Below are positions 707 to 38,600 of a stretch of DNA of 64,000 nt, in pieces. Origin of the DNA: Bdellovibrionales bacterium. Its GTDB lineage: Bacteria > Bdellovibrionota > Bdellovibrionia > Bdellovibrionales > UBA1609. The position numbers were made by a program, and so were the translations under genes. The notes beneath the pieces are model-generated. The model saw only the letters and a list, made by a program, of their open reading frames with translations, had not been told where the DNA came from and made no database searches. Where the stretch lies: assembly GCA_965116155.1 (NCBI GenBank), contig OZ220488.1, positions 977,103 through 1,041,102 on the forward strand, read 5' to 3'. Numbering within the stretch: the first letter of the stretch is position 1; each line of letters begins with the position of its first letter.

Positions 707-895
707 TTAGAGTGCTAGCTGCGTAAGCATCAGAGCGCTAGTAAAATTCTCTGAGGTAGAGTGGCGGCACACTGATAGCCCCAACGGGGCGGCCATCAGG
801 GTGCCAAGCTTGTATCAGAGAATTTTGCGGCCTATGAAGCTTCTACGAGCCTGTGGCCTTGGGTGCTCTCTAGGCCCAAGGCGACCAGATTGCCG
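707..895. repeat. Mosaic hairpin-repeat array starting 2 nt after the tRNA-Ser CCA
   Basis: TTAGAGTGCTAG + CTGCGTAAGCATCAGAGCGCTAG + AAAATTCTCTGAGG...CTGATAGCCCC-loop-GGGGCGGCCATCAG...TCAGAGAATTTT + GGCCTTGGG...CCCAAGGC. The same modules recur at 10991-11394 and elsewhere. Boundaries approximate. Confidence 0.85.
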
Positions 896-936
896 CAAAA
901 GGGATGGAGCACGTAAGTGTAAATTAAGGAGAGGTT

Positions 937-1626
937 ATGAAAAAACAACTCACCTGGGTCGCTTTGGGAACACTGACCTGCGTAGCGGTGTACTGGGGCT
1001 TTTGGCACACGACACGCTCTTGGCAGGAGGCGGAGTATTTTTTAGACCCTGCGCAAGAACGAGGGCTGGCAGCACAAAGCGCCACCCACATTAAAAAGCA
1101 TTCAAAAAGTGCGGCCAGCGTAGATAATTTATCTAAAGGGCTCAGTTGGGTGCGCACCAGGCCAGGCTACCTAGGGGTACGCTTAAAGCATCCGGTACTA
1201 GAAGTAGCCGGTGGGCAAAAAGCTTATGCCTGCGATGTATACACTTCTATAAGCTTAGAGTTTTTGTCTGAAGGGGTTTATGTATCGGGAGACCCCTCTA
1301 AAATGACGGCCAAAGGACCTTGCAAAAGCACTAAAGACAACCAACATATCGAAACCCTGTGGCTGCCGTTGGGAGAGGTGTTTAAAAAACCGCGCCGAGA
1401 CCTCGCCAATTATGTGTCTGCAGGAGAAAAAACCACCGTCTCCCTAAGCAACATAGGCCATACCTGGCCCAAGTCCTGGGTGCTAAGTGGGGTGGAGTTT
1501 TTACGCAACCCCACCCCGGGGCCACGCAAACCCACAGACACCATGAGTAACGCAAAACCCATCCGCATTGGCTTAAAAGGCCTGCGCAACCCTCAAGGCC
1601 TAGCCCCTGTGTTTCAATACGATTAG
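937..1626 (+). CDS. hypothetical membrane-anchored/secreted protein
   Basis: ATG preceded by AAGGAGAGG. N-terminal hydrophobic segment VALGTLTCVAVYWGFW. No family recognised. The TAG stop is the TAG of a TTAGAGCGCTAG repeat terminus. Confidence 0.6.
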   Translation: MKKQLTWVALGTLTCVAVYWGFWHTTRSWQEAEYFLDPAQERGLAAQSATHIKKHSKSAASVDNLSKGLSWVRTRPGYLGVRLKHPVLEVAGGQKAYACDVYTSISLEFLSEGVYVSGDPSKMTAKGPCKSTKDNQHIETLWLPLGEVFKKPRRDLANYVSAGEKTTVSLSNIGHTWPKSWVLSGVEFLRNPTPGPRKPTDTMSNAKPIRIGLKGLRNPQGLAPVFQYD

Positions 1627-1735
1627 AGCGCTAGGAAAATGCCCTGGGACTAAGCGCAGTCTCTAGCGCAGCCCCCTTTAGGGGGTGTCCGCGATAGAGA
1701 CAAGCGTCCCACAGAATTTTGGGCTAGCACTCTAA
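1623..1735. repeat. Compact complete repeat element (113 bp) with TTAGAGCGCTAG / CTAGCACTCTAA inverted termini
   Basis: It fills the whole gap between two convergent genes and supplies both stop codons (1624-1626 TAG; 1732-1734 CTA = TAG on minus). The interior is nested hairpins (GGGAC...GTCCC, GCAGCCCCC TTTA GGGGGTGTCCGC). Confidence 0.85.
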
Positions 1736-2190
1736 TTCAAATACAGTTCGCGGCTAATGCGATACAGCAAACTAAGCTCCTCCATGCCGTCGCTTCGCAG
1801 CTCTTCGGGTCGGTCTGTAAAGTCTTCGCGTTTAATAATATGCTTGGTAATATGCACTTCTACTGTGGCAGGAAGGCTCTCAGGAGGTAATTTTATAATT
1901 TGTATTCTAATATAATACGGCCATACGAGGTGCTGGCTTTCTAAACGGCTATAAAATTTAAAACTCTCAGGCGAATGGCGGTTGAGTTCGGTTACTATAT
2001 CGCCTGTATCTATGTCGCCGTTTTTTATAGTGTAACCCTGCGTGGCTTTGCGCATGGCAAACCACACGCTTTTGTAGTCTGACACAAATTGCTTTTTATA
2101 TGTCTTGGGCCGTATGGATTGTGGCAACGATACACAGCCCAAGGACAAAAAAACAATACACCCCAAAAAAATGCAGCCCTTTTTGTTCAT
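1732..2190 (-). CDS. hypothetical lipoprotein
   Basis: Signal peptide with lipobox FLSLGC. No family recognised. The stop lies inside a repeat terminus. Confidence 0.6.
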   Translation of the reverse strand: MNKKGCIFLGCIVFLSLGCVSLPQSIRPKTYKKQFVSDYKSVWFAMRKATQGYTIKNGDIDTGDIVTELNRHSPESFKFYSRLESQHLVWPYYIRIQIIKLPPESLPATVEVHITKHIIKREDFTDRPEELRSDGMEELSLLYRISRELYLN

Positions 2191-4616: not shown

Positions 4617-5141
4617 ATGTCTGTCTTTAAAAAAAACCTCAAAAAGTCGCTTAAAAGGGTACCGTTTTTAAAAAAGCGGCCTTCTGCCAGAAAGCTTTGT
4701 TTGGAATTTTTACGCTATACGAGTTTTGCGGGGTTTATGTTTTGTTGTTTATCGGTTGCTTTGTATTTTCAAAAAAACGCTGTACAAAAAATAGAGCTAA
4801 GTGCTGCTTATGTATTGCATGCGCCGTATCCGCCTTTTAAGCAGATTATCGCCCGTATCAAGTGGCCTACGCCGCAGATTTTGTGCCAAAATTATCACTT
4901 GCCTCAAGAGTTTGATGGTTGTGTTAGGAACACCCATGTGCAGCAGTATGCTATGATTCTTATGAACGAGCGTGATTGCATTATGCAGCTGCGGCTTACG
5001 GGTTTGCAGCATAATGACGAGCTGGAGAAAAACCTTTGCATCTTGCAAAAACTACAAAACGTCAAATCACCTCGTATCGAAAAAACCATCACTGTCGCCC
5101 CACACTCTCCGCGCCCTCCCAAGCCCCAACACACCATTTAA
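4617..5141 (+). CDS. hypothetical membrane protein
   Basis: ATG at 4617 preceded by AGAAGGAAA. One TM segment (SFAGFMFCCLSVALYF). The TAA stop lies in TTAAGTGCGTAAGCAT repeat sequence. Confidence 0.45.
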   Translation: MSVFKKNLKKSLKRVPFLKKRPSARKLCLEFLRYTSFAGFMFCCLSVALYFQKNAVQKIELSAAYVLHAPYPPFKQIIARIKWPTPQILCQNYHLPQEFDGCVRNTHVQQYAMILMNERDCIMQLRLTGLQHNDELEKNLCILQKLQNVKSPRIEKTITVAPHSPRPPKPQHTI

Positions 5142-5653
5142 GTGCGTAAGCATTAGAGTGTTAGAAAAATGCCATGTGGGACGCTGTGTGGTATCCTTGT
5201 CTTTGACGATAATGTGGCAAATGAGGTCACGTTTCATTCACTTGCTTCGAGCAAACCCTGACACAGGCGACAATATTTGCCTCGATCTAGAATATCCTCA
5301 CTTCAGGTACGCACTTAGACCCCATTTGCAGGGCCATAAAGAGCTGTCTAGTGCACAAAAATGCCTCAGGCCGAACCACTTGTCCCGTAAGGATAAAAGC
5401 GCCAGCAAAAACACTTTGATCAGAGACGCAGACACATTGGCAGCCCCTGCAAGGGGCGCCAGCCAAGGTGGCAAGCGAGGCTCCCATTTAAAGTGTTTTT
5501 GCGCGCTAGACAGCCCTCAACGCGCCGATAGCTTTGGACGATCTGTAGGTCCAAAGCGTACACACTCTCGTAGATGACCCGCTTCTCGCGGCGCTATCAG
5601 GTAGACGGCGTAGGGCTGAGGACATTTTTGCTGGCACTTTTATGCTCGCGCTA
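5139..5653. repeat. Mosaic hairpin-repeat array between convergent genes (stop to stop)
   Basis: Contains GTGCGTAAGCATTAGAGTGTTAG, a long-hairpin module (5216-5351), CAGCCCCTGCAAGGGGCGCCAGCCAAGGTGG, GCTTTGGACGATCTGTAGGTCCAAAGC and TTTTTGCTGGCACTTTTATGCT. All have homologs elsewhere in the window. Confidence 0.85.
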
Positions 5654-8509: not shown

Positions 8510-8559
8510 GGATAGCACATGACCTTGTAAAAGGATCGGACAAAAGTGGCCAGTAGCTC

Positions 8560-9148
8560 AAGGTGTCCATGGCGTTAAGATAATCTGGCAGGTCAGGTCA
8601 CGTCTGGGTGTATCGCGATCCATACAGCCTTGCCCTAGGCGACAGCGCTACCCTCAATTTACATAAATTGCACTTGCGGGTACGGGCTTGGACCTAACCT
8701 GCAGGGCCATAGATAGCTGTCTAGCGCGCAAAAATGCTTAACCTAGTGCGCCACCGCTTTGCTTCAGAGAATTTTACTAGCACTCTGATTGTATTTACCC
8801 GAACGCACGGAGCTTTGACGGCAGTCTGGTCGCCTTGTGCCTAACGATCGCACAAGGCTACAGGCTCATAGTAGCTTCATAGGTCGCAAAATTCTCTGTA
8901 AGACGCTTGGCACCCTGATGGCCGCCCCTTCACAGGGGCTATCAGGATGCCGGCGTGAGCTATCCAGCACGTGAGGGTGCCCTGGAATAGCCGCTTGCCT
9001 TGCACACCTTTAGGTGTGTCAGCAGGCTGCGCTCTCTGGCCAGGGCACCCTCACTAACACTTTTATGCTTACGCACTTAGCTTCAGAGAATTTTACTAGC
9101 ACTCTGATGCTTACGCACTTTGTCCCAGGGCATTTTCCTAGCGCTCTA
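8560..9148. repeat. Mosaic hairpin-repeat array
   Basis: Long-hairpin module at 8585-8723, a short-hairpin module (GCCTTGTGC...GCACAAGGC), a reverse-oriented AAAATTCTCTG...CAGAGAATTTT module with extra DNA inside it (8956-9080), and a CTAGCGCTCTAA terminus supplying the stop of the next gene. Confidence 0.85.
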
Positions 9149-10972
9149 ATGATTGCATGTAGCTGTGCCGTTGGGAGAAACGTGCCAACCACCTGCGGGC
9201 GGATGAGAGCCAGGGAGCCGATTGGATTTCCCCAGATCATCCTCGCGGCTGTCACCACTACCATCATCACCACCAGCAAAGCCATTTAAATGCGCTTGCA
9301 AAAGCGAACGCTCTAAAACGCCCCCGCCCGACACAGCACCTAAAGCCACACCCGGCATGCCAGGCTTCGTAAATACACCCGTCAAACTAGAACCCGTGCC
9401 CGTATTATCATTACCACCATACACGCACCTAAAGGCCTCAATGTCACTGGAATGCAAGCCCTTTTTCTCACCCACACTAATACTAGGGTACATAATACTA
9501 TCCGGGTCATCACTATGCCCCATACCCAAAGCATGACCCAACTCGTGCAGCATCACAGTACGAAAATGATACCTAATAGCACTAACAGTTTCGCCAAAAT
9601 CAAACCAATTGGTCACGGCGCTCAAGGAGCTAGTAGCATACACGCGCCCTTGGTCGATAATACCAATGTCCACATCGCTAATCAAAAACTTCTCATAGCA
9701 AAGCGTTTTAGTCCTATCTCTACAAACGGAAGGAAAAGCCATATAAGCCGTAGCTAACGCTCCGCGGGTTGAGCGCACATTGTAGTATGCATCTGGAATG
9801 ACCTTAATTACATTGATCCCATCTGACTCAGTAAATCTCTCATACCTTGCAGAACTCAATTTAAACACGCGGTCCCAAGAAGATATGCCCTCTACAGCAT
9901 CGTTCCACACCTGCATTACATGCTCTAGGTCTGCCTTCATTTCATCAGTAATGTTTTCATGCAAACGAAACAACAATCTATTTCGTATACGAAGAGGCCC
10001 TAAAGAAAACCGCGTATTAAAACCACACGAAGCAATTGGATAAATATCCGGATCTTTGGGGCTGGTTTTTTTAAACCTCTTTACAAAAGCATCGTAATGC
10101 AAACGACGCTTAACCTCATGCAAACCCCTTAGTGAGCTGGATGGGTCCCAAAGCAAATTTACATTGTTTGCTGACTTAAAGCTCCACTCTGACCAATCGG
10201 GAAACAAAAAATCATTCGCCCCATAAAACATCCCATCCATAAGACGCACATTTTCTACATAACTTGGTTTGGGCACACTCACAAAACCCAGCTTAGGAGT
10301 GTTGTAAAAAGCTGCAGTTAAGTCCACCCACTGCATATCGCCTAAGCTCTTAACTGCTACCAGTTTGTTGTTGTCTTTGCTATTTTTCCAGTGTGGTGAA
10401 TTTGCTAATAAACCACCCCAAGCCTGCAACCTGCCCCTAATACGCACCTCGTAAAACCCTGGGCTTTTATACGTATGCCGAGCTGAAGAAAGCGCTCTGC
10501 GACTTGTAATATGCTGAATTTTAGTCCCATCACCCCAATCTACATAAAAATCGTAAGCATCTGGCAATTCTAATTGACTCAAGTGAGCCGCTTCACGAAG
10601 CGGCAGTCTGAGGGTTAAAGAATCCGCAGGAATGTCCCACAAGGTAACAAAAGAGCTCTTATACTCGGCGCGCCCTTCTAAACGCTGCACCTTGTTTAGT
10701 TTATCGCCTTCGCCGCTTGAAGCTGCTAAAGCCGCCATGTCTAATTTGCGCATCTGTTGCAAGCAGAGCAAATGCTCCCCAGCACTGCCACAAGCCTTTA
10801 AGCTCGCAGTGTCCGAGTCATCGTCATCGTCATTATCGTCGTCGTTGTCATCGTCGTCGTCGTCTGGATTGTTTACAGATGTGCCCGGCCCAGCATTAAA
10901 AGACTCGCAGGCGGCAAAAAACAATAAAAGGCCCATAAGAGCCAACAGGATCAAAAACCGGCTGCTTTTCAC
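9146..10972 (-). CDS. lipoprotein with DUF285/BspA-like N-terminal region and matrixin-type (M10 metzincin) zinc protease domain
   Basis: GTG start. Lipobox LLFFAAC. Poly-Asp/Asn linker. YDFYVDWGDGT...HTYKSPGFYEVRIRG motif. HELGHALGMGHS zinc motif with SIMYP Met-turn. Paralog of 11693-13339. Confidence 0.8.
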   Translation of the reverse strand: MKSSRFLILLALMGLLLFFAACESFNAGPGTSVNNPDDDDDDNDDDNDDDDDSDTASLKACGSAGEHLLCLQQMRKLDMAALAASSGEGDKLNKVQRLEGRAEYKSSFVTLWDIPADSLTLRLPLREAAHLSQLELPDAYDFYVDWGDGTKIQHITSRRALSSARHTYKSPGFYEVRIRGRLQAWGGLLANSPHWKNSKDNNKLVAVKSLGDMQWVDLTAAFYNTPKLGFVSVPKPSYVENVRLMDGMFYGANDFLFPDWSEWSFKSANNVNLLWDPSSSLRGLHEVKRRLHYDAFVKRFKKTSPKDPDIYPIASCGFNTRFSLGPLRIRNRLLFRLHENITDEMKADLEHVMQVWNDAVEGISSWDRVFKLSSARYERFTESDGINVIKVIPDAYYNVRSTRGALATAYMAFPSVCRDRTKTLCYEKFLISDVDIGIIDQGRVYATSSLSAVTNWFDFGETVSAIRYHFRTVMLHELGHALGMGHSDDPDSIMYPSISVGEKKGLHSSDIEAFRCVYGGNDNTGTGSSLTGVFTKPGMPGVALGAVSGGGVLERSLLQAHLNGFAGGDDGSGDSREDDLGKSNRLPGSHPPAGGWHVSPNGTATCNH

Positions 10973-10990: not shown

Positions 10991-11394
10991 TTAGAGCGCT
11001 AGTAAAATTCTCTGAGGCACAGAGCGGCGGCACACTGATAGCCCCTCAAAGAGGGGCAGCCATCAGGGTGCCAAGCTTGTATCAGAGAATTTTGCGGCCT
11101 ATAAGAGATCTATGGCCCTGTAGCCTTGGACGATCTTTAGGTCCAAGGCGACCACACTTTCGTCACAGCCCCGTGCATTGAGCAAAAACAAATTAGAGCG
11201 CTAGTAAAATTCTCTGAGGCACAGAGCGGCAGCACACTGATAGCCCCTCAAAGAGGGGCGGCCATCAGGGTGCCAAGCTTGTATCAGAGAATTTTGCGGC
11301 CTATAAGAGATCTATGGCCCTGTAGCCTTGGACGATCTTTAGGTCCAAGGCGACCACACTTTCGTCACAGCCCCGTGCATTGAGCAAAAACCAA
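10991..11394. repeat. Tandem duplication, 2 x 202 bp, of a composite repeat unit
   Basis: Units 10991-11192 and 11193-11394 differ at about 3 positions. Each unit is TTAGAGCGCTAG-AAAATTCTCTGAGG hairpin-GGCCTATAAG-short hairpin GCCTTGGAC...GTCCAAGGC-tail. Confidence 0.95.
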
Positions 11395-11697
11395 TTAGAG
11401 CGCTAGGAAAATGCCATGTGGGACGCTTGTCTGGTATCCTTGGCTTTGACGGGAGTGTAGCAAATGAGGTCACGTTTCATTCGTTTCCTCTGAGCAAGAC
11501 CGGGTGCAGGCGGCATTATTTACCTCGATTTAGAGTATCCTCATTTCAGGTACGCACTTAGCCCTCATTTGCAGGGCCATAGATAGCTGCATAGACCGCC
11601 AAAGCACCTCTTGGTTTTCCACTTGCCTGACGCACCCAAAGGTGCATTGCCAGGCTGCGCTGCATGCAAGAGGTGCTTGGGCTAGTCTGTAATTAAT
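11395..11697. repeat. Mosaic hairpin-repeat array
   Basis: TTAGAGCGCTAGGAAAATGCC terminus, long-hairpin module at 11460-11593, and a CCAAAGCACCTCTTG...CAAGAGGTGCTTGGGCTAGTCTGTAA hairpin ending at the stop of the next gene. Confidence 0.85.
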
Positions 11698-13339
11698 GAC
11701 CACACGTAGCGACGCCGTCGGGAGAGACGTGCCAGCCGCCTTTGGACTTATGATCAGGAAGTCGTGCATCTTCACTACTAACACTATCCACCAGACCACC
11801 CAAATGTGTCCGCAGCATAGAAAGCTCTAAATTTTCACCACTGTACATGCAATGAAAAGCCTGCGCATCACTAGCATGCACCTCCTTAACCACGCCCCTA
11901 GGCACTGAAGGATACATGATGCTGCTGCGCGAATCACTATGAACCAAACCCAACGCGTGGCCCAGCTCATGCAGCATCACAGTACGAAAATGAAACTTAT
12001 CTCTACTCGGCACAGCCCCGAACTGAAAGTTCGCCCTGCCCTTTTCGCCATAAAGCTTAAAACCTATGTCCATATCCGTCACATTAAACACTGCATCGCA
12101 CAATGGCCCGCCCCCCAAACACCGTCCTCCAGAACCCACATAGGTAGAAGCCAAAACTCCCGGCGCAAAACGCGCACCCTCGTCTGAATCAGAGAGCACT
12201 TTAATAAAATTTTTCCCATCAATGGCAATGGCATCCAAACCATTGGGGTTGGTTTTTAATACCCTTATCACCTCCATACCCAAAGCCGCATTCCAAGCCT
12301 CGGCCAGATACGCTAAATCCAAGCGAGCAAAATTACCCATATCGCGGTCTAAAATAAAATCGAGCGGAAACGCGCTCTTGGGCCATGCCAAAGGGCGCCA
12401 GGCGCGCTTTACCTTAAATCCACAAGACTGCGCCGGGTACCTAGCACCTGGCTGTGTCTTATGAAACCTTTTGACATAAGCATCGTAATGCAAACGCCGC
12501 TTAACCTCGAGCAAGGCCCCAGCAGGCTGCTCAGTGTTCCAAAAATACGTTGCGCTCTTTACGCTTTTAAAACTCCACTCCGACCAGTCTGGCAATAAAG
12601 ACTCAAAAGTTCCATAAAAAGCATAATCTATAAAGCGCACATTTTTTGTATACTGGGCCTCGGGCACTTGAACTTGACGCAAATTTTGCGCATTAAAAAA
12701 AGCAAAACTCAAATCACGCCACTGCATATCGCCCAGGCTTTTAACTTTTACTAGCTTATCGTTACTCGTGCTATTCTCCCACACGAGCCCACGCCTGCCT
12801 CCCCAAGCCTTAAGCACACCCCTTAAACGCACCTCATACGTACCAGCGCGAGAGTAAGTGTGCCCCGCGCCCGCGCCATTTTCCGTTACATGCTCAATAG
12901 CGCTCCCATCGCCCCAGTCTACATAAAAATCATACGCATCCTGTATGTTAACCTTGCGCAAATACGCCGCGCTCCTTAAAGGCAAAGCCACAGCCCACGA
13001 GCGCCGGCTCACACGCCACTCGGTCACCATGGAGCTCTTGTATGTATCCAAAGCCTGCAGCACTGTGGTATCGATTTGCCGCATGGCTTCAAGACACTTT
13101 TTGTGCTGTGCAGATGAGTCTGAACAAAGTGGGAGCAGCGATTTTTTAGCAACCTCAATGGCGCTGTCTTTTTCGGTATCTTTTGCCGTATTGCCTGCGG
13201 CGTCTTGACTGCCTGCTACGAGGTGCTTTTGTGCTGCGCCAGCACCAGGAGGTGCCAGAGGCTCAAAAGCGCCACAGGCAGCAACCCAAAACACTCCACA
13301 AATAACGCCAAAACGAACCCCACGCCCCCTAATAGACAA
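11693..13339 (-). CDS. lipoprotein with DUF285/BspA-like region and matrixin-type zinc protease domain (paralog)
   Basis: TTG start preceded by GGGGGGA. Lipobox FWVAAC. YDFYVDWGDGS...HTYSRAGTYEVRLRG. HELGHALGLVHS with SIMYP. Its C-terminus GGWHVSPDGVATCGH matches that of its neighbour. Confidence 0.8.
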   Translation of the reverse strand: MSIRGRGVRFGVICGVFWVAACGAFEPLAPPGAGAAQKHLVAGSQDAAGNTAKDTEKDSAIEVAKKSLLPLCSDSSAQHKKCLEAMRQIDTTVLQALDTYKSSMVTEWRVSRRSWAVALPLRSAAYLRKVNIQDAYDFYVDWGDGSAIEHVTENGAGAGHTYSRAGTYEVRLRGVLKAWGGRRGLVWENSTSNDKLVKVKSLGDMQWRDLSFAFFNAQNLRQVQVPEAQYTKNVRFIDYAFYGTFESLLPDWSEWSFKSVKSATYFWNTEQPAGALLEVKRRLHYDAYVKRFHKTQPGARYPAQSCGFKVKRAWRPLAWPKSAFPLDFILDRDMGNFARLDLAYLAEAWNAALGMEVIRVLKTNPNGLDAIAIDGKNFIKVLSDSDEGARFAPGVLASTYVGSGGRCLGGGPLCDAVFNVTDMDIGFKLYGEKGRANFQFGAVPSRDKFHFRTVMLHELGHALGLVHSDSRSSIMYPSVPRGVVKEVHASDAQAFHCMYSGENLELSMLRTHLGGLVDSVSSEDARLPDHKSKGGWHVSPDGVATCGH

Positions 13340-15947: not shown

Positions 15948-18900
15948 GTGTATAGCCCGACTATATTATTAAGTGCAGTGAGGAGTATTATACGGTTTTT
16001 TGTTAGGGAGCATCTGCTAAGCAATGTTTTAACTTTGCTGTGTGTTTTTGCAGGTGTGGTTTCTATAAGCGGCATGCGGCGTGCTATTTGGCCCGATGTA
16101 GAGTTTAACATAACAGTACTGAGCACTATTTTGCCTGGCGCGTCTTCTGAAAAAGTAGAGCAACTGGTAACCGTGCCTTTAGAAGAAAGCCTGCGCCCTT
16201 TAAAAGGCATTAAAAGCGTCAGCTCTACTTCCACCCAAAACCAAAGCTTTATTGCCATAGAGCTAGACATCGACGCACAAGATCCCAGGCGCACTAATGC
16301 TGATATTCGCCGCGCCATTGACCAGGTCACTGACTTGCCGGAGGACAGCCTTAAAACACAGATTGATGAACTAGATGCAGACGATAATGGCGTGCTAGAG
16401 GTAGCACTATCCGTGCGGGACGATGCTAAAATATCCGACTTAGACCTGGCCATACAAGCCAAACGCGTAAGAGACGAGCTCAGCCTCTTGCGAGAGAGCT
16501 CTCTTGTTGTGCCCAATGGCTTAAGAGACAGAGAATATATTGTAGAGGCCAGCTTGGAGCAATTAAAACGCAAGCGGGTATCTTTGCAGGAGCTTTTAGC
16601 GGCTCTCAAGCTAACGAATGTGTCTTTGCCCTCTGGAACGCTCACACAAGCCAATGGCGAAGAGGTGCTGTTACGGTCTTCAGGAGAGTTTTACGGGGTT
16701 TCGGATATTGAAAATGCCGTATTGCGGTCGAATGCCTCAGGCTACCATGTGCGGGTAAAAGATGTAGCCCGTGTGCGTAAGGGCTTGGCCCCGGCTACGC
16801 GCTTATACCGTGCGGGGGGGAGCCCCTCTATTAACCTTATGGTGAGCAAAAAAAAATCCGTAGATGTCTACGATTTGGTTGCGGGCATTAAAAACCGCAT
16901 GGCAGAGCTTAGACCCAGTATCCCCGAAGGCATTAAAATCGACTATATTAATGACCTTTCGATTTATCTAACCAACCGTATTAGCACCCTTAGGGGCAAC
17001 CTAATTTTGGGGCTGGTGCTGGTGGTGCTTTTGCTTATGATATTTGTACCCTGGCCTGTGGCTTTAGTAGTAGCTGTGGGCATTCCGATTGCCTTTTTTG
17101 CCGCTTTAAGTGCCGCGTATGCTATTGGTTTTTCTATTAATGTTGTCAGCCTTTTGGGACTGATATTGGTTTTAGGCATGCTGGTGGACGACGCCATTGT
17201 TGTAAGCGAAAACATCTGGCGCCACGTGCAGCAAGGAGGCGAAAGCCTGGTAGATAGCATAGTAGAGGGCACATATGAGGTATTTGGCGCAGTAGTGGCC
17301 TCTGTTATGACAACGGTTTCGGTGTTTTCGCCCATGCTGGTCATGAGCGGCGTGATGGGGTCGTTTATTTTTGAAATCCCCTCTATGGTGATACTGGCGC
17401 TGGTGTTTTCATTGTTAGAGGTGTTTATAATTATGCCGGCGCATTTTATTTCGTGGGTGGGGCCATTTGCAAGGCGCGTTAAAGCGCGCGAAAAAGCCGG
17501 CCACGGTGCTTACGAAAAAGCCCAGTGGTTTAAAAAGCTCACCAAAATATATGTACGCTTTGTGGGTTGGAGCCTAAAGTGGCGCTGGGCAATGGGCTTT
17601 GGGCTTGTAGCCTTTACGGCTGCAACTGCGGTACTGGTTTACAAAACCAACAAGTTTAAGTTGTTTCCAACGGATGGGGCGGATGTTTTTTTTATAGCCC
17701 TGCACGCTCCCAAGGGCTCCTCACTAGAGCATACCGCAGCGCTTGCAGTGCCTTTAGAAAAACTTGTGTCGCAATTGCCAAGACATGAGTTGGTGGATTT
17801 TAGTACCAGCATAGGCATTGTGCAGCAAAGCCCTAGCGACCCTTTTACGCAGCGGGGGTCTCACTTTGCCAACCTTAGAATCCGGCTATCGCCTATTAAT
17901 AAACGCACACGCACGGCAGATGAGATTATGGCAGAAATCAAAGCCCAAACCCCTTCGCTTAAAGAGCTGGGTTTAGAAAAAATAGTATATTTTAAAGCAC
18001 AAAACGGCCCACCCCAAGGGCGGGATATTCAGTTTAGCCTATTGGGTGATGAGCTAAATGTGCTAAAAAAAATCGCCCTTAAGCTAGAGCGCACCATGCA
18101 AGGTGTTGCTGGTGTGCAAGAGGTGCAAAACTCTTACGCTGAAGGCAAAGTGGAATACAGTGTTGAGGTGTTGCCCTTGCGTGCAGCCCAAATGGGTTTA
18201 AGCGCTTTTGATATTGCCCAAGGCGTACGCTTAGCGGTTGAGGGGAATACAGTAAGCGAAATCGTGCATGCAAATGAGTCATGGGACATTCGGGTAAAAT
18301 CTGTGCCTCGCTATGGAGAGGATTTTTTAGGTAGCAGCACTCATACAGACTTAGAAAAACAACTTCGTGGCCTTGTCATAGGCAACGCCCGTGGAGCCTT
18401 AATACCCTTAAGGGAGGTAAGCCGCATTAAGCAGGCGCGCTCCTTAAGCAGCATTAGGCGCAAAGACTACAAACGCGCGGTCAGCTTAGCAGCTGAGGTG
18501 GATTTAACTAAAAGCACTCCCATTAAAGCAACAGCAGAGCTTAAAAAGCTCTTTAAGCCTATAATAGCAAAGCACCCGAATTACAGTGTGGTGTGGGGAG
18601 GGCAAGACCAAGACACCAAAGAGAGCATGGCATCACTCATGCGGGCTTTTGGGTTTTCTATCTTTTTTGTATTTATGCTGCTTTTGATTACTTTTAAAAA
18701 TATTGTACAGCCCCTTATTATATTAAGCTCTATACCTTTGGGTTTTGCGGGGGTATCTTATGCTATGCTGCTGCACAACCGGCCATTTAGTTTTATGGCC
18801 ATGTTAGGCATGATTGCCCTAGGGGGAGTGATTGTAAATAACTCTATTGTGTTTATTGATTTTACCAATAAAATGCTAAAAAAAGGCGCAGCCTTAAGAG

Positions 18901-19181
18901 AGGCTATTTTATCTACTTCTGAGGTGCGCTTGAGGCCAATTTTTCTCACCACTATGACCACAGTGTTTGGCCTTATGCCTACTGTGTATGGGCAGCAATT
19001 GAGTCAGCTCACCGGATGGGGCGGCAGTGACCCTTTTATTGTGCCTATTGCCATGTCGCTAGCCTGGGGATTGGCAATAGGGACTTTTTTGGTAACGCTT
19101 TTTATGCCCGCGTTGGTTCACATAACGCATGACATTTACGCAGCACTGGACAAAGTACAAAAAAGAGCATTCAGGGGCTAA
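15948..19181 (+). CDS. RND-family efflux transporter permease (AcrB/HAE-type)
   Basis: 1077 aa with 12-TM RND architecture and two large periplasmic loops. GTG start. No adaptor or outer-membrane factor gene is adjacent. Confidence 0.85.
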   Translation: MYSPTILLSAVRSIIRFFVREHLLSNVLTLLCVFAGVVSISGMRRAIWPDVEFNITVLSTILPGASSEKVEQLVTVPLEESLRPLKGIKSVSSTSTQNQSFIAIELDIDAQDPRRTNADIRRAIDQVTDLPEDSLKTQIDELDADDNGVLEVALSVRDDAKISDLDLAIQAKRVRDELSLLRESSLVVPNGLRDREYIVEASLEQLKRKRVSLQELLAALKLTNVSLPSGTLTQANGEEVLLRSSGEFYGVSDIENAVLRSNASGYHVRVKDVARVRKGLAPATRLYRAGGSPSINLMVSKKKSVDVYDLVAGIKNRMAELRPSIPEGIKIDYINDLSIYLTNRISTLRGNLILGLVLVVLLLMIFVPWPVALVVAVGIPIAFFAALSAAYAIGFSINVVSLLGLILVLGMLVDDAIVVSENIWRHVQQGGESLVDSIVEGTYEVFGAVVASVMTTVSVFSPMLVMSGVMGSFIFEIPSMVILALVFSLLEVFIIMPAHFISWVGPFARRVKAREKAGHGAYEKAQWFKKLTKIYVRFVGWSLKWRWAMGFGLVAFTAATAVLVYKTNKFKLFPTDGADVFFIALHAPKGSSLEHTAALAVPLEKLVSQLPRHELVDFSTSIGIVQQSPSDPFTQRGSHFANLRIRLSPINKRTRTADEIMAEIKAQTPSLKELGLEKIVYFKAQNGPPQGRDIQFSLLGDELNVLKKIALKLERTMQGVAGVQEVQNSYAEGKVEYSVEVLPLRAAQMGLSAFDIAQGVRLAVEGNTVSEIVHANESWDIRVKSVPRYGEDFLGSSTHTDLEKQLRGLVIGNARGALIPLREVSRIKQARSLSSIRRKDYKRAVSLAAEVDLTKSTPIKATAELKKLFKPIIAKHPNYSVVWGGQDQDTKESMASLMRAFGFSIFFVFMLLLITFKNIVQPLIILSSIPLGFAGVSYAMLLHNRPFSFMAMLGMIALGGVIVNNSIVFIDFTNKMLKKGAALREAILSTSEVRLRPIFLTTMTTVFGLMPTVYGQQLSQLTGWGGSDPFIVPIAMSLAWGLAIGTFLVTLFMPALVHITHDIYAALDKVQKRAFRG

Positions 19182-19541
19182 TGTGCGTAAGCATAAAAGT
19201 GGCCTCTTGAAATCTTGGGCGGGTAGCGTAGCCACCTGCTCCCCTATATGGGGTGCTGCGGGTGGCAAGCGAAAAGCCCCAGGATTTCAAGGGAGAACTG
19301 GATAGCTCGTCGACTATCGGGAAGATGCGCTTAATCCCATGGCACGAGGCTTTGACGGGAGTGTCGCGGCCTTGGGCTTAAAGATCGCCCAAAGCCGCAG
19401 GGCCGTAGTAGCTTCATAGGTCGCCACATGCTCTGTGGGACACTTGTCTCCAGCGTGGTCGCCCCTTTAAAAAGGGGCTACACTGGAGACTGCGCTTAGC
19501 CCAGAGCATGTGACTAGCGCTCTGATGCTTACGCATATCTA
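19180..19541. repeat. Mosaic hairpin-repeat array filling the convergent gap stop-to-stop
   Basis: TAATGTGCGTAAGCATAAAAGTGG + CTTGAAATCTTGGG...CCCCAGGATTTCAAG hairpin (homolog at 60944-61080) + short hairpin GGCCTTGGGC...GCCCAAAGCC + ACATGCTCTGTGGGAC...CCCAGAGCATGT hairpin + CTAGCGCTCTGATGCTTACGCA. Confidence 0.85.
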
Positions 19542-20600
19542 ACTTGCTACATTAAAGGAGGTGCGTACGCAGTTGCGGCCGGCATGTTTGGCGTCGTAAA
19601 GGGCCTTGTCGGCACGCTTGAAAAGCTGCTCCCATTTTGTATCGCCCGGCACTAGCGTCGCCACACCCACCGATACACTCACCGACAAAGGCCGCACGCC
19701 GCTTTCTGTAATGCCAGATAAAAACTTATGCGACGACACTGTTTTGCAAATATGCCTCGCCATCACAGCCCCATCTATACCGGACCGACCCGAAAGCAAA
19801 ATTACAAACTCCTCACCCCCAAAGCGCGCAAAAAAATCATCCTCACGCTTGAGCTCTTTTTGCACCACCTGCACCATCTCTTTAAGCACGTAGTCTCCCA
19901 ACTGGTGACCATAGGTGTCGTTAATTTTTTTAAAGTGGTCTACATCTAAAACTAGCAGACTAAAATCCTCGCCATATTTTTGTGCATGCATAAACTGCCT
20001 TTTGGCGTGCGACATCAAGCTTGCACGATTAAACACCCCTGTTAAAGCATCCAATCGCATAAGATTAAACAAATGCGGGTCAAAAGTGTTTTGAGGAAAA
20101 AACTGCAACACCAATCGGCCCATCTGAATACGGCTCACTCCATAAGAGTTCAACTCATACGGCACATAGGGCACGAGCTCGTGAATACGTTTTTTGCCCT
20201 TCAAGCCCAAATCACCCGTCACAATAACCCGTGTTCCATTAACAGACTCTTGATCCGATATAAATACACGCTGACTGGACTCGTCCCCCCTGACATCAAT
20301 AAGAGCATGCGACTTGCTCACGCCGCTCCCCACTCCATAAGCCACTATGTCGGCATCAGACGAACTGCCTACCATGTACTCTTTGGGCTCTAAGTTCCAA
20401 ATGCTTAAGTCATCAAAGTTCACCAGCACCGGAGGGTGAGACAGCTTGGTTTCAGGCGCGAGGCTATCTACTGTTAGCATCATGGTTTTATCTACAACAC
20501 TCGTATCGCCGCTCCTTTTTTGCTGAGGCTCTGCTGCCGGCTGATCAGAAAACAAACCCTGTTTGTTGTCAATTTTGTTGGTGTTGATTTTTTTGCCCAT
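19539..20600 (-). CDS. diguanylate cyclase with N-terminal FHA-like domain
   Basis: GGDEF domain (RFGGEEF, DHFKKINDTYGH). The preceding segment resembles FHA (GSSSDADIV...VSKSHALID...FISDQESVNGTRV). Confidence 0.8.
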   Translation of the reverse strand: MGKKINTNKIDNKQGLFSDQPAAEPQQKRSGDTSVVDKTMMLTVDSLAPETKLSHPPVLVNFDDLSIWNLEPKEYMVGSSSDADIVAYGVGSGVSKSHALIDVRGDESSQRVFISDQESVNGTRVIVTGDLGLKGKKRIHELVPYVPYELNSYGVSRIQMGRLVLQFFPQNTFDPHLFNLMRLDALTGVFNRASLMSHAKRQFMHAQKYGEDFSLLVLDVDHFKKINDTYGHQLGDYVLKEMVQVVQKELKREDDFFARFGGEEFVILLSGRSGIDGAVMARHICKTVSSHKFLSGITESGVRPLSVSVSVGVATLVPGDTKWEQLFKRADKALYDAKHAGRNCVRTSFNVAS

Positions 20601-23271: not shown

Positions 23272-23715
23272 TTGGTCTGTATGGAATCAAATGTATACAT
23301 GCGCTTTAGGGGCGCTTTAGAGTTTTCTGACTTTGGTCCGAAACCAGTTACGTATATGGATTTTTACAAATTTTCATTAGCTGTGTGTTTGTGGGCTTTT
23401 TTTATGTATGCCTTGGGCGGGTGGTTTTTAATTAAAAACTCTACCCCGGGCGCCACATTGGCAAATGACAAAAACATAGGAAAAGTTGCGCCCACCCATG
23501 GTTATGCGGTGGGGTTTCCGTTTGAAGTATATGTATCTAAACACAATCCCCAAGCCCACGCAGGCAAGGCTGTGTCCCGTAGACGCGTGCCAGCAAGCGA
23601 AAGCCTCACGGCACAAGAGCTCTTGGACCCCAATGCCGTGCAAGACGAATCAGAGCTCCAGCCCTCTGACGATTACCCTATGATGTACGATTTAGAGGAA
23701 CAATTAGAGCGCTAG
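23272..23715 (+). CDS. hypothetical single-TM protein
   Basis: TM segment FSLAVCLWAFFMYALGGWFLI. The true start may be ATG 23356. The last codons LER-stop are read from TTAGAGCGCTAG. Confidence 0.4.
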   Translation: MVCMESNVYMRFRGALEFSDFGPKPVTYMDFYKFSLAVCLWAFFMYALGGWFLIKNSTPGATLANDKNIGKVAPTHGYAVGFPFEVYVSKHNPQAHAGKAVSRRRVPASESLTAQELLDPNAVQDESELQPSDDYPMMYDLEEQLER

Positions 23716-23878
23716 TAAAGTTAAAGACTAGCCCTTTGGCAGCCTCCGTAGGAGGCGCATGCCAAGAGGGCAAACGACAGTCCCAAAGTGACAAAGGGGA
23801 ACTGGATAGCTCTCTCAAGCGGCGGCCATCAGGATGCCGCCGCTTAGCTTCAGAGAATTTTACTAGCGCTCTGATTTA
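23704..23878. repeat. Mosaic hairpin-repeat array between convergent genes
   Basis: TTAGAGCGCTAG ... GCAGCCTCC GTA GGAGGCGC hairpin ... GGCGGCCATCAGGATGCCGCCGCTTAGCTTCAGAGAATTTTACTAGCGCTCTGATTTAA. It carries both flanking stop codons. Confidence 0.85.
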
Positions 23879-27592: not shown

Positions 27593-27715
27593 AAGGTGTT
27601 TACCCCCCTTGTATTTTTGGGCTTTGCCCTCATACGCCACGCCTTGGAGCCATGCGCAGACTGCTTAAACGCATGCCACATCAGTAGTGCAGGAATTGAA
27701 GTGTATGTCATGTCG

Positions 27716-28398
27716 CTTTGCGTAAGCATAAAAGTGCCAGCAAAAATGTGTGAGCATAAAAGTGTTAGTGAGGGCGCTCGCACGTGCTGGATAGCTTCTG
27801 ACTTCAGCCCTACGCAGTCCAGCTGATAACGAAGGGCCCCGCAGGGGAACGAAGCGTCCAAACTCACTTCAAAGGCAGGGAGGCTGCGCTTCATACTCAA
27901 GTTTTCCATAGCGTTAAGACAATCTGGCAGGTCAGGTCACGCCTGGTTTTTTCGCGATCAATAAAGCCCGGCCGCAGGCGACATTACTTGTCTCAATTTA
28001 CCTACAATTGCACTTGCGAGTACGGGCTTAGACCTAACCTGCAGGGCCATAGATAGCTGCATAGACCGCCAAAACACCTTGTTATTCCACTTGCCTGAAG
28101 CGCCTGAAGGCACTTTACCAGGCTGCGCTTCATACTCAAGTTTTCCATAGCGTTAAGACAATCTGGCAGGTCAGGTCACGCCTGGTTTTTTCGCGATCAA
28201 TAAAGCCCGGCCGCAGGCGACATTACTTGTCTCAATTTACCTACAATTGCACTTGCGAGTACGGGCTTAGACCTAACCTGCAGGGCCATAGATAGCTGCA
28301 TAGACCGCCAAAACACCTTGTTATTCCACTTGCCTGAAGCGCCTGAAGGCACTTTACCAGGCTGCGCTTCATACTCAAGGTGTTTTGGCTAGTCTGTA
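27716..28398. repeat. Mosaic hairpin-repeat array containing a perfect 2 x 239 bp tandem duplication
   Basis: Units 27882-28120 and 28121-28359 look identical by eye. Each holds a long-hairpin module (27924-28063, 28163-28302). The array ends in CAAGGTGTTTTGGCTAGTCTGTAA, which encodes the last residues of the S41 protease. Confidence 0.95.
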
Positions 28399-30534: not shown

Positions 30535-30644
30535 AGCATACTCCTTGAAAACACCACCTGTACCACATCAGTATACCCGCACAAACACAAAAGCGCACGA
30601 GGCTGTGACGGCAATCTAGCAGATCATACGAGCCTCAGACACAA

Positions 30645-30947
30645 TGTTTCCATAGCGTTAAGACAGTCTGGTCGCGATAGGCCTAAAGATCACCTATCGC
30701 TACAGGCTCATAGATAGCTGTCTAGCGCGCAATATTACCTTGAAGCCTACGTTTGCCATCTTGGCTAATGCCCTATGGGCAGCCAAGATGGCTGCACTCT
30801 CAGGTTCAAGGGTAACATTGCTGGCGCTTTTATGCTTACGCCAGCTGCATAGACCGCCAAAACACCTTTTTATTCCGCTGGCCTGGCGCACCTAAAGGCG
30901 CTTGACCAGGCTGCACTTCATGCTAAGGTGTTTTGGCTAGTCTTTAA
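30645..30947. repeat. Mosaic hairpin-repeat array
   Basis: CCATAGCGTTAAGACAGTCTGG + short hairpin + CAGGCTCATAGATAGCTGTCTAGCGCGC + GCCATCTTGGCT...AGCCAAGATGGC hairpin + TTTTATGCTTACGCC + CCAAAACACC...GGTGTTTTGGCTAGTCTTTAA. The final TTA is the ybgF stop. Confidence 0.85.
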
Positions 30948-35902: not shown

Positions 35903-35933
35903 CGCCAAAGCCGCGCATTTTTTGAGCCCTCAC

Positions 35934-38458: not shown

Positions 38459-38490
38459 TTAGAAACATATCGGCAAAATTACACTATAAC

Positions 38491-38582: not shown

Positions 38583-38600
38583 CTTAACTAGCGCTCTAAA

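What the first reader, a model, noticed from the sequence alone, without database searches (positions are those of the whole stretch)
1623..1735. Repeat termini coincide with stop codons, and TA-flanked compact copies suggest insertions that regenerate the stop
At least 15 genes terminate inside or adjacent to a repeat terminus. Stops in T1/T3 termini are at 518, 1624, 1732(-), 5139, 9146(-), 19179, 19539(-), 23713, 23876(-), 41377(-) and 59489. Stops in T2 termini are at 11693(-), 28375(-), 30944(-) and 36686(-), and the stop at 51111(-) is adjacent to one. Convergent gene pairs are bridged exactly stop-to-stop (1623-1735, 19180-19541, 23704-23878, 36573-36690). The three compact complete copies are flanked by TA on both sides (1624-25/1733-34, 36574-75/36687-88, 38491-92/38581-82). 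The first base inside the TA is G in T1 and A in T2. An insertion into the TA of a stop codon with TA duplication would therefore recreate TAG or TAA for genes on both sides. Each terminus also carries stops in two of three frames in either orientation. This fits a TA-targeting MITE (IS630/mariner style) filtered by selection, but that mechanism is my inference.
Basis: partly seen in the sequence, partly recalled or inferred. Interest (0 to 1): 0.75.

Follow-up and report, generated by a model that had tools for sequence, protein, structure and literature searches.

The report
Hairpin repeats that supply stop codons
A lineage-specific family of small palindromic repeats fills the gaps between genes of this small Bdellovibrio-like genome, and the repeats' conserved tips (TTAG.../TTAA...) sit so tightly against genes that they often provide the stop codon. 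This is striking in extent, but it is a known behaviour of bacterial miniature mobile elements.

Summary
In this 64-kb window, repeats cover about 4.6 kb of about 9.5 kb of non-coding DNA. Of 24 gene or tRNA 3' ends that face a repeat array, 20 lie within 3 nt of it or inside it. Seven genes use the TAG/TAA at positions 2-4 of a conserved 12-13-nt "cap" (T1 TTAGAGCGCTAG, T2 TTA[A/C]AGACTAGCC), against 0.07 expected by chance.

The repeats are full-length hairpins with conserved caps and variable, internally complementary stems. They are joined into mosaic arrays, and some arrays carry tandem duplications.

- For: orthologue C-termini are flush with the cap; one paralogue pair shares sequence up to ...CAT-TA; frames are biased to cap positions 2-4; and the TA-duplication model gives a sensible empty site (GATTAATTC) at 1623-1735.
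- Against: the TA lies inside a palindromic tip (A-TTA...TAA-T), so TA on both sides is not diagnostic. Filled/empty sites inside arrays show no uniform TA duplication. The window holds no matching transposase. No relative carries the family, so no empty site could be read.

Verdict: a new member of a known kind (MITE or REP/BIME-like repeats), moderately interesting.

The parts
1623..1735 (.). Compact T1 element (113 nt): cap TTAGAGCGCTAG, full-length hairpin, inverted cap. It bridges the convergent genes 937..1626(+) and 1732..2190(-), and both TAG stops are cap positions 2-4.
   Evidence: Fold z-scores -4.8 and -7.3. Empty-site reconstruction.
36573..36689 (.). Compact T2 element (117 nt), TTACAGACTAGCC...GGCTAGTCTTTAA. 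The TAA stop of 36686..38458(-) is cap positions 2-4. ORF 35877..36605(+) reads 10 codons into the element.
   Evidence: Fold z-score -10.
38490..38599 (.). Compact T2 element (38490-38582, 93 nt) in a divergent promoter region, followed by a solo T1 cap (38588-38599, minus orientation).
   Evidence: Fold z-score -8.2.
707..905 (+). Array starting with a T1 cap 2 nt after the CCA end of tRNA-Ser. The order is cap, C, TGCGTAAGCA, cap, hairpin H1, junction motif, hairpin H2. There is no cap on the side facing the start of gene 937.
5142..5650 (.). Array with extended (M1-type) termini at both ends. Stop 5139 (TAA) and stop 5651(-) (TAG) abut it with 0 nt between.
8557..9149 (-). Array whose outer T1 cap supplies the TAG of matrixin gene 9146..10972. 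It has three stacked 42-nt half-units at 9053-9151 and carries a 120-nt M1-type unit (9075 to 8956) that four paralogous copies lack.
10991..11692 (.). Array with a T1 cap on the left, 18 nt upstream of the start of 9146..10972, and a T2 cap on the right, directly after the TAA of matrixin gene 11693..13339. It contains a 2 x 202-nt tandem module, each copy starting with a cap.
19183..19538 (.). Array with M1-type termini at both ends. It bridges the stops of AcrB-like 15948..19181(+) and GGDEF 19539..20600(-), with spacers of 1 and 3 nt.
23704..23875 (.). Array between 23272..23715(+), whose TAG stop is cap positions 10-12, and 23876..25585(-), whose TAA lies 1 nt outside a TCAGAG-variant cap.
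27719..28399 (-). Array with a 2 x 239-nt, 100% identical tandem module. The outer T2 cap (TTAC variant) lies in the 3' end of Prc-like 28375..30534 and gives it 7 repeat-encoded codons.
   Evidence: Prc homology ends at residue 712 of 719.
30632..30947 (-). Array whose T2 cap supplies the TAA of CpoB-like 30944..31675.
   Evidence: Profile match is flush with the C-terminus.
39872..41380 (.). T1-capped composite element of about 236 nt, interrupted by an IS3-family IS (40001-41272, GGT duplication). Its right cap supplies the TAG of HtrA 41377..42987.
   Evidence: HtrA C-terminus is flush with 16 orthologues.
49451..50159 (.). 709-nt mosaic array with T1 caps at both ends. The left cap is 29 nt upstream of the start of 47247..49421. 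The right cap lies inside ORF 50101..50979.
50987..51109 (-). Unit with a T2 cap 1 nt after the TAG of 51111..51737 and an M1-type terminus at the other end.
54013..54046 (-). Solo 34-nt half-unit (M1 + cap-like sequence + AAAAATG arm) in the 57-nt spacer between two co-directional genes.
   Evidence: (family D1).
55676..56030 (+). Array whose T2-like cap (TTACAGACTAGCCC) lies in-frame inside the Na/Pi-PhoU gene 54062..55861. Codon 539 onwards (61 codons) is repeat-encoded.
   Evidence: Homologues are 530-555 aa and their alignments stop at query residues 529-543.
59488..59511 (+). Solo T1 cap + C + TGCGTAAGCA. It supplies the TAG of MscS-like 57872..59491 and has stops in all three frames.
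60943..61320 (.). Array with an M1-type left end and a T1 cap on the right, 20 nt upstream of the start of 61341. It is interrupted at 61083-61211 by a 129-nt insert containing (CTTT)10.
63312..63643 (.). Array that includes the intact 234-nt T1-capped composite (63410-63643). The right cap is 16 nt upstream of the ankyrin gene start at 63660.

Best explanation
The window holds a lineage-specific superfamily of non-autonomous, hairpin-forming intergenic repeat units, of the MITE or foldback type.

Anatomy (shown): each unit is a long imperfect palindrome bounded by a short conserved cap. The cap variants are homologous: T1 TTAGAGCGCTAG, T2 TTA[A/C]AGACTAGCC, an extended form TGCGTAAGCA-TNARAG..., and degenerate internal forms such as GGCCTATAAG. 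The cap tip reads TTA-R, so it carries TAG/TAA in two of three frames.

Proposed mechanism (inferred): units insert at TA-containing, TTAA-like sites. In a compact genome the tolerated sites are largely the stop codons themselves (NNT-TAA) or the few bases after them. Insertion there recreates a stop (TA+G or TA+A) for the gene, and for both genes where convergent stops overlap.

Selection then removes disruptive insertions. This leaves elements packed from the stop codon on one side to the ribosome-binding region on the other.

Arrays then grow by further insertion next to or inside existing units, by tandem duplication of cap-delimited modules, and by recombination between units.

Shown here: the anatomy, the abutment to stops, the flush C-termini, the stem covariation, the mosaicism and the tandem duplications. 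Inferred: transposition itself, the TTAA/TA target with duplication, and the enzyme.
For: - Repeats are real and cover about half of the non-coding DNA.
- Stop coincidence in exact register: 7-8 observed against 0.067 expected. 3' spacers are 3 nt or less in 20/24 cases, against 0/12 at 5' ends.
- Compact copies fold as full-length hairpins, z -4.8 to -10.
- Eighteen hairpin units have different arms that each match their own partner: 12.5 against 7.6 matches, 0/20000 permutations.
- Caps mark the natural protein C-terminus: HtrA is flush with 16 orthologues, and the Prc, CpoB-like and ABC profile matches end at the cap.
- When the cap lacks a stop in the gene's frame, the ORF simply runs on into the repeat. 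Prc gains 7 codons (TAC variant, same frame), the Na/Pi-PhoU gene 61 codons, and 35877..36605 gains 10 codons.
- Matrixin paralogues are homologous up to TCAT-TA. They continue G+T1 cap in one and A+T2 cap in the other.
- Frame bias is 8/12 to cap positions 2-4. T precedes the stop in 7/7 cap-stops against 7/30 in other genes.
- Removing 1626-1734, which leaves one TA, gives GATTAATTC and keeps both convergent genes at 229 and 152 aa. The other models give 235/231 or 280/159 aa.
- Outer caps keep TTA in 16/17 cases, whereas internal caps often read TCA.
- Precedent: bacterial MITEs typically have TA termini and target duplications (PMC2229807). Coxiella QMITEs overlap gene 3' ends by 1-50 bp without changing protein size (PMC5896051).
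Against: - No empty site could be read. All window proteins are singletons at 90% identity. The closest relative has 45% HtrA identity and lacks the family. Metagenome scans gave nothing, or only chance hits.
- TA lies inside a conserved palindromic tip (A-T-TA...), so TA at both ends follows from the symmetry alone.
- Paralogous filled/empty sites inside arrays do not show a TA duplication. A 120-nt M1-type unit has none, a 50-nt unit has CA, and a 129-nt unit has CTTAT, which is also a recurrent junction motif.
- Caps occur in direct as well as inverted orientation, and some array ends have no cap. Blocks occur in any order and orientation.
- Copies sharing caps have unrelated interiors, unlike a MITE burst from one master copy.
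- The window has no DDE_3/IS630 or other cognate transposase.
- Four of 12 cap-entering ORFs use other frames.
- One outer cap (23874) reads TCAGAG, with no TA.
Confidence: 0.5

Rival explanations
1. REP/BIME- or REPIN-like elements mobilised by a single-strand HUH (Y1) transposase, either a RAYT or an IS200/IS605 type. The enzyme would recognise hairpins next to a short conserved motif. Units would insert 3' of a tetranucleotide (TTAN or TAAG) without target duplication, and cap-delimited modules would be amplified in tandem.
For: - Hairpin structure is conserved while stem sequence varies.
- Conserved CTAG/TTAG motifs sit directly next to the stems.
- Caps occur in alternating and in direct orientation, with variable segments between them.
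- Cap-delimited modules are amplified head-to-tail: 2 x 202 nt and 2 x 239 nt. Tandem amplification of basic modules is described for BIMEs (PMC2817692).
- The M1-type unit has asymmetric ends and sits right after CTAAG with no duplication.
- The family is species-specific and abundant, as REPs are (PMC2817692).
Against: - The cap is not a 20-40-nt palindrome with a GTAG/GTGG head. It is TTAG plus a 6-nt palindrome.
- Compact copies have symmetric inverted termini, unlike IS200/IS605 ends.
- M1 units show no strand bias in a window of uniform GC skew.
- The window holds no Y1_Tnp/RAYT gene.
- This model does not by itself explain why the TA-duplication reconstruction restores both stops.
Confidence: 0.2
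2. Insertion is not aimed at stop codons. Elements landed anywhere in once-longer spacers. Reductive, deletion-biased evolution of this 1.6-Mb genome then trimmed all dispensable DNA. Because caps carry stops in two frames, deletions that removed the original stop were tolerated, and the cap stop took over.
For: - Arrays are packed wall to wall on both sides. They end 16-41 nt from start codons at several 5' ends, leaving just room for a ribosome-binding site.
- The contig is small, 1.61 Mb.
- Some genes keep their own stop 0-3 nt outside the terminus.
- Several ORFs run into repeats in other frames.
Against: - Caps next to genes are intact, not ragged. Random deletions should often leave truncated caps.
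- The excess of the position 2-4 register and the invariant T before the stop are not predicted.
- Paralogue homology ends exactly at TCATTA.
- Protein ends are flush rather than variably shortened.
Confidence: 0.15
3. The repeats are kept mainly for a function at the RNA level. Candidates are 3'-end hairpins that stabilise or terminate transcripts, insulate convergent genes, or couple translation termination to a structure. Their position at stop codons would reflect selection for that function, not insertion preference.
For: - Stable hairpins sit at the very base of which both convergent stops lie.
- Compensated stems suggest selection on pairing.
- Closeness of REP hairpins to stop codons is functionally relevant in E. 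coli (my own recollection; not checked here).
Against: - No U-tract terminators occur in the repeats, while canonical terminators exist elsewhere in the window.
- The same units occur in 5' leaders and in divergent promoter regions (38490-38599, 10991, 49451, 61320, 63643). They also occur inside one another.
- Copy number, mosaicism and tandem duplication look selfish.
- Rfam gives no match.
- The closest relative lacks the family.
Confidence: 0.1

Closest known systems
Correia repeat-enclosed elements (CREE/NEMIS) of Neisseria
   Same: Both are about 100-155-bp non-coding elements with terminal inverted repeats and TA at the tips. Both are abundant next to genes, are transcribed as stem-loops, and sometimes fuse to ORFs (PMC2229807).
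   Different: Correia elements form one fairly uniform family with a fixed interior and an IHF site. Here only 12-13-nt caps are shared, the interiors are unrelated full-length hairpins, and units form mosaic arrays. The TA duplication documented for Correia is not demonstrable here.
RUP of Streptococcus pneumoniae with IS630-Spn1 (an IS630/Tc1-mariner-type MITE)
   Same: A small TIR element inserting at TA, with stop codons in all frames.
   Different: RUP has TIRs matching a resident IS630-family transposase gene. No such partner was seen here. Conservation extends beyond the TA (A-T-TA), and internal filled/empty sites lack a TA duplication.
Coxiella burnetii QMITE1/QMITE2
   Same: These MITEs overlap the 3' ends of functional genes by 1-50 bp and supply C-terminal residues or stops without changing protein size. 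They are hot spots for IS insertion (PMC5896051). Here an IS3 and another insert hit the same spot of one element.
   Different: QMITEs have variable 2-11-nt direct repeats and are much less dense. They are not reported as cap-delimited mosaics bridging convergent genes stop to stop.
REP / BIME / REPIN elements with RAYT transposases
   Same: Both are extragenic, species-specific, highly abundant hairpin repeats. Both cluster in alternating orientation with variable inter-repeat segments, show compensatory changes that keep the palindrome, and show tandem amplification of basic modules (PMC2817692).
   Different: REPs are 20-40-nt palindromes with a GTAG/GTGG head. Here the conserved part is a 12-nt TTAG... 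cap and the palindrome is the whole 90-120-nt unit. No RAYT was seen in the window.
Neisserial intergenic mosaic elements (NIME: RS units flanked by dRS3 repeats). Comparison from my own knowledge, not checked in a paper here.
   Same: Arrays of variable 50-150-bp units delimited by a short conserved repeat, lying between genes.
   Different: dRS3 is a 20-bp inverted-repeat site used by a phage integrase. NIME units are not long hairpins and are not known to supply stop codons.

Membership tests
   The compact copies 1623-1735, 36573-36689 and 38490-38582 have 12-25-nt inverted termini. Many other units have a cap at only one end, or caps in direct orientation.
   TA is present at both ends but lies inside a conserved palindromic tip (A-T-TA). 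One paralogue comparison and one reconstruction fit TA/TTAA. Three internal filled/empty sites do not show a TA duplication. No orthologous empty site is available.
   Pfam scans of 50 of the window's ORFs found only an IS3-family transposase, which has its own TG..CA ends and a GGT duplication and was inserted secondarily, and a YhgA-like Transposase_31 gene. The other 96% of the genome could not be read.
   No second strain or close relative is in any collection.
REP / BIME (REPIN-RAYT) | A 20-40-nt imperfect palindrome with a conserved 5' GTAG/GTGG head | tested here: not met
   The conserved element is TTAGAGCGCTAG or TTAAAGACTAGCC. The pairing partner is the distal arm of a 90-120-nt unit.
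REP / BIME (REPIN-RAYT) | Clusters of repeats in alternating orientation with variable spacers, and tandem amplification of modules | tested here: met
   Mosaic arrays. Tandem 2 x 202 nt and 2 x 239 nt modules delimited by caps.
REP / BIME (REPIN-RAYT) | A RAYT (Y1 HUH) gene flanked by inverted copies of the repeat | tested here: not met
   No Y1_Tnp hit among the window's ORFs.
Integron attC sites / gene cassettes | An integron integrase, co-oriented promoterless cassettes, and R''/R' core sites (RYYYAAC ... GTTRRRY) | tested here: not met
   The flanking genes are housekeeping genes in both orientations. No integrase is present. The cap TTAGAG(C) does not fit GTTRRRY and is mostly preceded by A.
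Intrinsic (Rho-independent) terminators | A G+C-rich hairpin followed by a T-run | tested here: not met
   The terminator-like sites found in 1-20000 do not correspond to the repeat units' hairpins; the few that overlap a repeat array are short weak stems, and the unit apex hairpins lack T-runs.

The most novel reading that the evidence does not exclude
The caps are the recognition sites of an as yet unidentified structure-specific enzyme. It would mobilise any hairpin bounded by TTA-R caps and home to TTAA/TAR, that is, to stop codons and to the caps of resident units. On this reading the elements are portable stop codons, evolved to colonise a compact genome at, and even between, overlapping convergent stop codons. 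The conserved-cap/free-stem grammar would define a new class of bacterial foldback element rather than an IS630-derived MITE.
Probability: 0.15. Interest if true: 0.65.

Novelty: new member of a known kind. Interest (0 to 1): 0.4.

Why it matters
If the TTAA/stop-codon targeting is real, it shows how a selfish element can saturate a gene-dense, reduced genome. Carrying its own stop codon in the terminus makes the one position shared by every gene a safe landing site.

There are practical consequences for annotation of this lineage:
- About 15% of the genes in the window end in repeat-derived stops.
- Several ORFs carry repeat-encoded tails of 7-61 residues.
- Some "ORFs" are probably pure repeat.

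The family is also a ready-made strain-typing and population marker for an uncultivated, probably host-associated, deep branch of Bdellovibrionota.

Tried and rejected
The pattern was too short for 596 Gb, and the only scan of that collection was lost.
2. Exact look-ups of the window's proteins to fetch more of the genome failed, although the proteins are in the cluster table as singletons on a 1,611,223-bp contig.
3. Metagenome scans: a 25-mer T1 pattern gave 0 hits. A 19-mer T2 pattern gave 4 hits, none of them a copy of the repeat.
4. The closest relative locus, L064, keeps the DUF1844-HtrA synteny. It has none of the caps, only unrelated repeats.
5. Rfam at the gathering threshold and at E up to 1 found only the two tRNAs and spurious hits.
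6. The idea that the arrays are deletion derivatives of one long master element was rejected. Shared blocks occur in different orders and both orientations.
7. The idea that the IS3 between T1 caps is the autonomous partner was rejected. It has its own TG..CA ends and a GGT duplication, and an intact paralogue of the host element exists at 63410-63643.
8. The idea that the repeats are intrinsic terminators or promoters was rejected. Promoter-like hits are at shuffle level. Terminator-like hits exceed shuffles (44 against 25), but the repeat units do not account for them.
9. Integron attC was considered and rejected (see the membership test).
10. The YhgA-like gene (59651..60583) was examined as a possible mobiliser. 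It is flanked by M1 motifs in direct, not inverted, orientation, and nothing links it to the caps.
Full report
**Context**

The window is about 49% G+C. It belongs to a single 1,611,223-bp contig, and every protein tested is a singleton at 90% identity in a 15-billion-protein collection.

Gene content is that of a Gram-negative bacterium: AcrB, Pal/OmpA, CpoB-like, DsbD, Prc, HtrA and DUF1844. There are also ankyrin, HEAT, Fic and AbiE genes.

The best HtrA relatives are Bdellovibrionales/Bdellovibrio proteins at only 38-45% identity. NCBIfam names the CpoB-like protein after Bdellovibrio Bd0635. The source is therefore a deep, probably host-associated branch of Bdellovibrionota with no sequenced close relative.

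Yes.
- The T1 12-mer TTAGAGCGCTAG occurs 38 times with up to 2 mismatches, against 6.25 expected.
- The T2 21-mer occurs 8 times against 0 expected.
- Self-BLAST puts about 4.6 kb of the window in repeats, out of about 9.5 kb of non-coding DNA.

- Five genes use the TAG at cap positions 2-4 of T1: 1624, 1732-, 9146-, 41377-, 59489.
- One uses the TAG at positions 10-12: 23713.
- Two use the TAA at positions 2-4 of T2: 30944-, 36686-.
- Eight more stops lie 0-3 nt outside a terminus.

Three details need correcting.
- The 28375(-) stop is a TGA 22 nt inside the element. That cap is the TTAC variant, read in the same frame as TAC.
- The + gene at 36573 reads 10 codons into the element.
- The first base after TA in T2 is A or C.

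I also found caps inside ORFs at 55676 and at 50148-50159, and a cap 2 nt after the CCA end of tRNA-Ser.

**Statistics**

- With 25 outer caps placed at random in non-coding DNA, 0.067 exact-register coincidences with a stop are expected. Seven to eight are seen (P about 1e-12).
- Spacers are 3 nt or less at 20 of 24 3' ends, against 0 of 12 5' ends (Fisher 1.5e-6).
- Eight of 12 ORFs that enter a cap do so in the position 2-4 frame (p=0.019).
- The base before the stop is T in 7/7 cap-stops, against 7/30 for other genes.
- Each cap carries stops in two of three frames in either orientation. Cap+C+M1 carries them in all three.

**What the repeats are**

The compact copies fold as single full-length hairpins, with z-scores from -4.8 to -10. 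The stop codons of both neighbours sit at the base of the stem.

The family is not a uniform MITE.
- Copies that share caps and outer stems have unrelated interiors, for example 36573-36689 against 38490-38582.
- Eighteen hairpin units have different arm sequences, yet each arm matches its own partner: 12.5 against 7.6 matches, 0 of 20000 re-pairings.
- T1, T2, the cap that follows M1 (TCAGAGCGCTAG, TAAAAGTGTTAG, TAAAAGCGCCAGC) and the internal junction motifs (GCGGCCTATAAG, GGCGGTCTATGCAG, TCTATGGCCCTG) are variants of one cap.
- Units are strung into arrays of up to 700 nt. Shared blocks occur in different orders and both orientations.
- Cap-delimited modules are tandemly duplicated: 2 x 202 nt, and 2 x 239 nt at 100% identity.
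- Most arrays keep an intact outward-facing cap at both ends.
- On the 5' side of genes, arrays end 16-41 nt from the start codon at several sites. The spacers are essentially filled wall to wall.
- No T-run terminators and no excess of promoter-like sites are associated with the repeats.
- Rfam has nothing.

**Do the caps mark the ancestral gene end?**

Largely, yes.
- HtrA ends within 2 residues of 16 orthologues.
- Full-length NCBIfam profiles end at the cap for Prc (homology to residue 712 of 719; the last 7 residues, YRLAKTP, are cap-encoded), for the CpoB-like protein, for HtrA and for the ABC ATPase.
- The Na/Pi-PhoU protein is an exception. Homologues are 530-555 aa and alignments stop at query residues 529-543. 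The cap starts at codon 539 and 61 repeat-encoded codons follow. There the element sits slightly inside the gene and has replaced its tail.

**Is there a TA duplication?**

In favour:
- The tandem paralogous matrixin genes are alignable up to ...TCAT-TA. One then continues G-AGCGCTAG (T1) and the other A-TTACAGACTAG (T2). In the first gene, therefore, the T-TA of the "cap" is also what the gene would have had anyway (CAT TAA).
- Deleting 1626-1734 so that one TA remains gives GAT-TAA-TTC. Both convergent genes then keep exactly their present lengths, sharing a TTAA. Treating TTAGAG...CTCTAA or TAGAG...CTCTA as the whole element gives 235/231 or 280/159 aa.
- Outer caps keep TTA in 16/17 cases, while internal caps often read TCA.
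- In the distant relative L064, HtrA ends ...CCT-TAA-A, again a TTAA.

Against:
- TA is self-complementary, and conservation extends outside it. T at position 1 is 25/25 and A at -1 is 20/25. TA on both sides is therefore what any inverted repeat starting (A)TTA would show. If TA is target-derived, the target must be about ATTAAT.
- Paralogous filled/empty sites exist inside arrays, and they do not show a TA duplication.
  - A 120-nt M1-type unit (9075 to 8956) is absent from four sister copies. It sits after CTAAG with no duplication.
  - A 50-nt unit in the 27.7-kb array is flanked by CA/CA.
  - A 129-nt hairpin unit at 49921-50049 is flanked by CTTAT/CTTAT, which is also the recurrent junction motif.
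- Genuine insertions of other elements into the repeats do show clean duplications: the IS3 (40001-41272, GGT) and a 129-nt (CTTT)n-bearing insert (GGTAG) at the same spot. The method can therefore see duplications when they exist.

**Autonomous partner**

None was found in the window. The Pfam scans found only an IS3-family pair and a YhgA-like (Transposase_31) gene. The IS3 lies between two T1 caps only because it inserted into a 236-nt capped composite, whose intact paralogue is at 63410-63643.

The rest of the genome, and any other strain, could not be reached. The nearest relative locus has the same DUF1844-HtrA synteny but none of these repeats.

**Most likely mechanism**

I consider it most likely (about 0.5) that these are non-autonomous, hairpin-forming mobile units. 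On this view they insert at TTAA-like sites, including stop codons. They are tolerated there because the cap re-supplies TAG/TAA, and they later expand into arrays by adjacent or nested insertion, tandem duplication and recombination.

The rivals are:
- a REP/BIME-like system driven by an HUH enzyme without duplication (0.2);
- non-targeted insertion followed by deletional trimming in a shrinking genome (0.15);
- retention for an RNA-level function (0.1).

These are not mutually exclusive.

**Comparison with what is known**

- Bacterial MITEs typically have TA termini and target duplications, and they can fuse to ORFs (PMC2229807).
- Coxiella QMITEs overlap gene 3' ends by 1-50 bp without changing protein size, and they are IS hot spots (PMC5896051).
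- BIMEs are mosaic, alternately oriented, compensated palindromes with tandem module amplification (PMC2817692).

The present family combines features of both groups and fits neither definition cleanly (see the membership test). Its density and the stop-to-stop bridging of convergent genes are unusual in degree, not in kind.

**Verdict**

This is a new member of a known kind, with interest of about 0.4.

Noticed in passing
window 40001-41272 (duplications at 39998-40000 and 41273-41275); compare 61083-61211: An IS3-family IS (OrfA HTH_Tnp_1 + OrfB rve, TG..CA ends, GGT duplication) has inserted into a T1-capped repeat, in the sequence AACGCGCCGG^TAGCTTTGGG. In a paralogous copy, a 129-nt insert carrying (CTTT)10 sits at the same spot with a 5-nt duplication (GGTAG). 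This spot is an insertion hot spot inside the repeat.
   Followed up: yes
window 10987-11390 and 27881-28358: Tandem duplications of whole repeat modules: 2 x 202 nt at 98-99% identity and 2 x 239 nt at 100% identity. The second junction shows TTTT microhomology. These are recent local amplification, or possibly an assembly artefact.
   Followed up: partly
window 54062-55861, 28375-30534, 35877-36605, 50101-50979: ORFs whose C-terminal 61, 7, 10 and about 19 codons are encoded by repeat sequence. The Na/Pi-PhoU protein is about 50-60 residues longer than its homologues for this reason. ORFs such as 4972..5577, 27589..27909 and 60817..61152 lie mostly in repeats and are probably not genes.
   Followed up: partly
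window 10983, 38470, 49431, 21305 (minus-strand reading TTTTGCCGAYA): A conserved motif, (A)TTTTGCCGA(C/T)(A/G), lies roughly 2-20 nt upstream of the putative start codons of four minus-strand genes that lack an obvious Shine-Dalgarno sequence. In three of them a repeat cap lies immediately upstream. It may be a leader or regulatory motif.
   Followed up: no
window 56292-56330 and 56402-56450: A perfect 23-nt palindrome with a 3-nt loop (CACTGCCGCAAGAATAAAGGATA...) overlaps the 3' end of gene 56434..57750. A related half-copy lies 110 nt upstream. It is unrelated to the cap family.
   Followed up: no
window 45284-45323 and 61089-61128: Perfect microsatellites: (CTTTT)8 upstream of the 625-aa ankyrin gene, and (CTTT)10 inside a repeat array upstream of another ankyrin gene. 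Both are candidates for phase-variable expression.
   Followed up: no
whole window (50 ORFs): Stop-codon usage is TAG 21, TAA 21, TGA 8. The high share of TAG is partly due to stops supplied by T1 caps.
   Followed up: partly
window 9146-10972 and 11693-13339: Two tandem paralogous secreted matrixin-like (Peptidase_M10) genes with Asp-rich 9-nt repeat tracts (7659-7749 in a neighbouring gene, and 10809-10872). Their 3' ends served as a natural paralogue control for the insertion site.
   Followed up: partly
window 36000-48000 and 59600-64000: Lower-G+C stretches (about 44-46%) carry Fic, AbiEi/AbiEii, IS3, YhgA-like (Transposase_31) and ankyrin genes. They have canonical T-run terminators (for example 45078-45122). 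They look horizontally acquired, yet the repeats have colonised them too.
   Followed up: no
L064 11558-11710: In the nearest relative (45% HtrA identity), the equivalent convergent spacer downstream of HtrA holds an unrelated 34-nt-arm palindrome. That HtrA ends ...CCT-TAA-A, a TTAA context.
   Followed up: partly
window 9053-9151: Three stacked 42-nt half-units, each made of TGCGTAAGCA + cap + 5' arm + TAAG, have their 3' partners further inside the array. This looks like successive nested insertions after a TAAG.
   Followed up: partly
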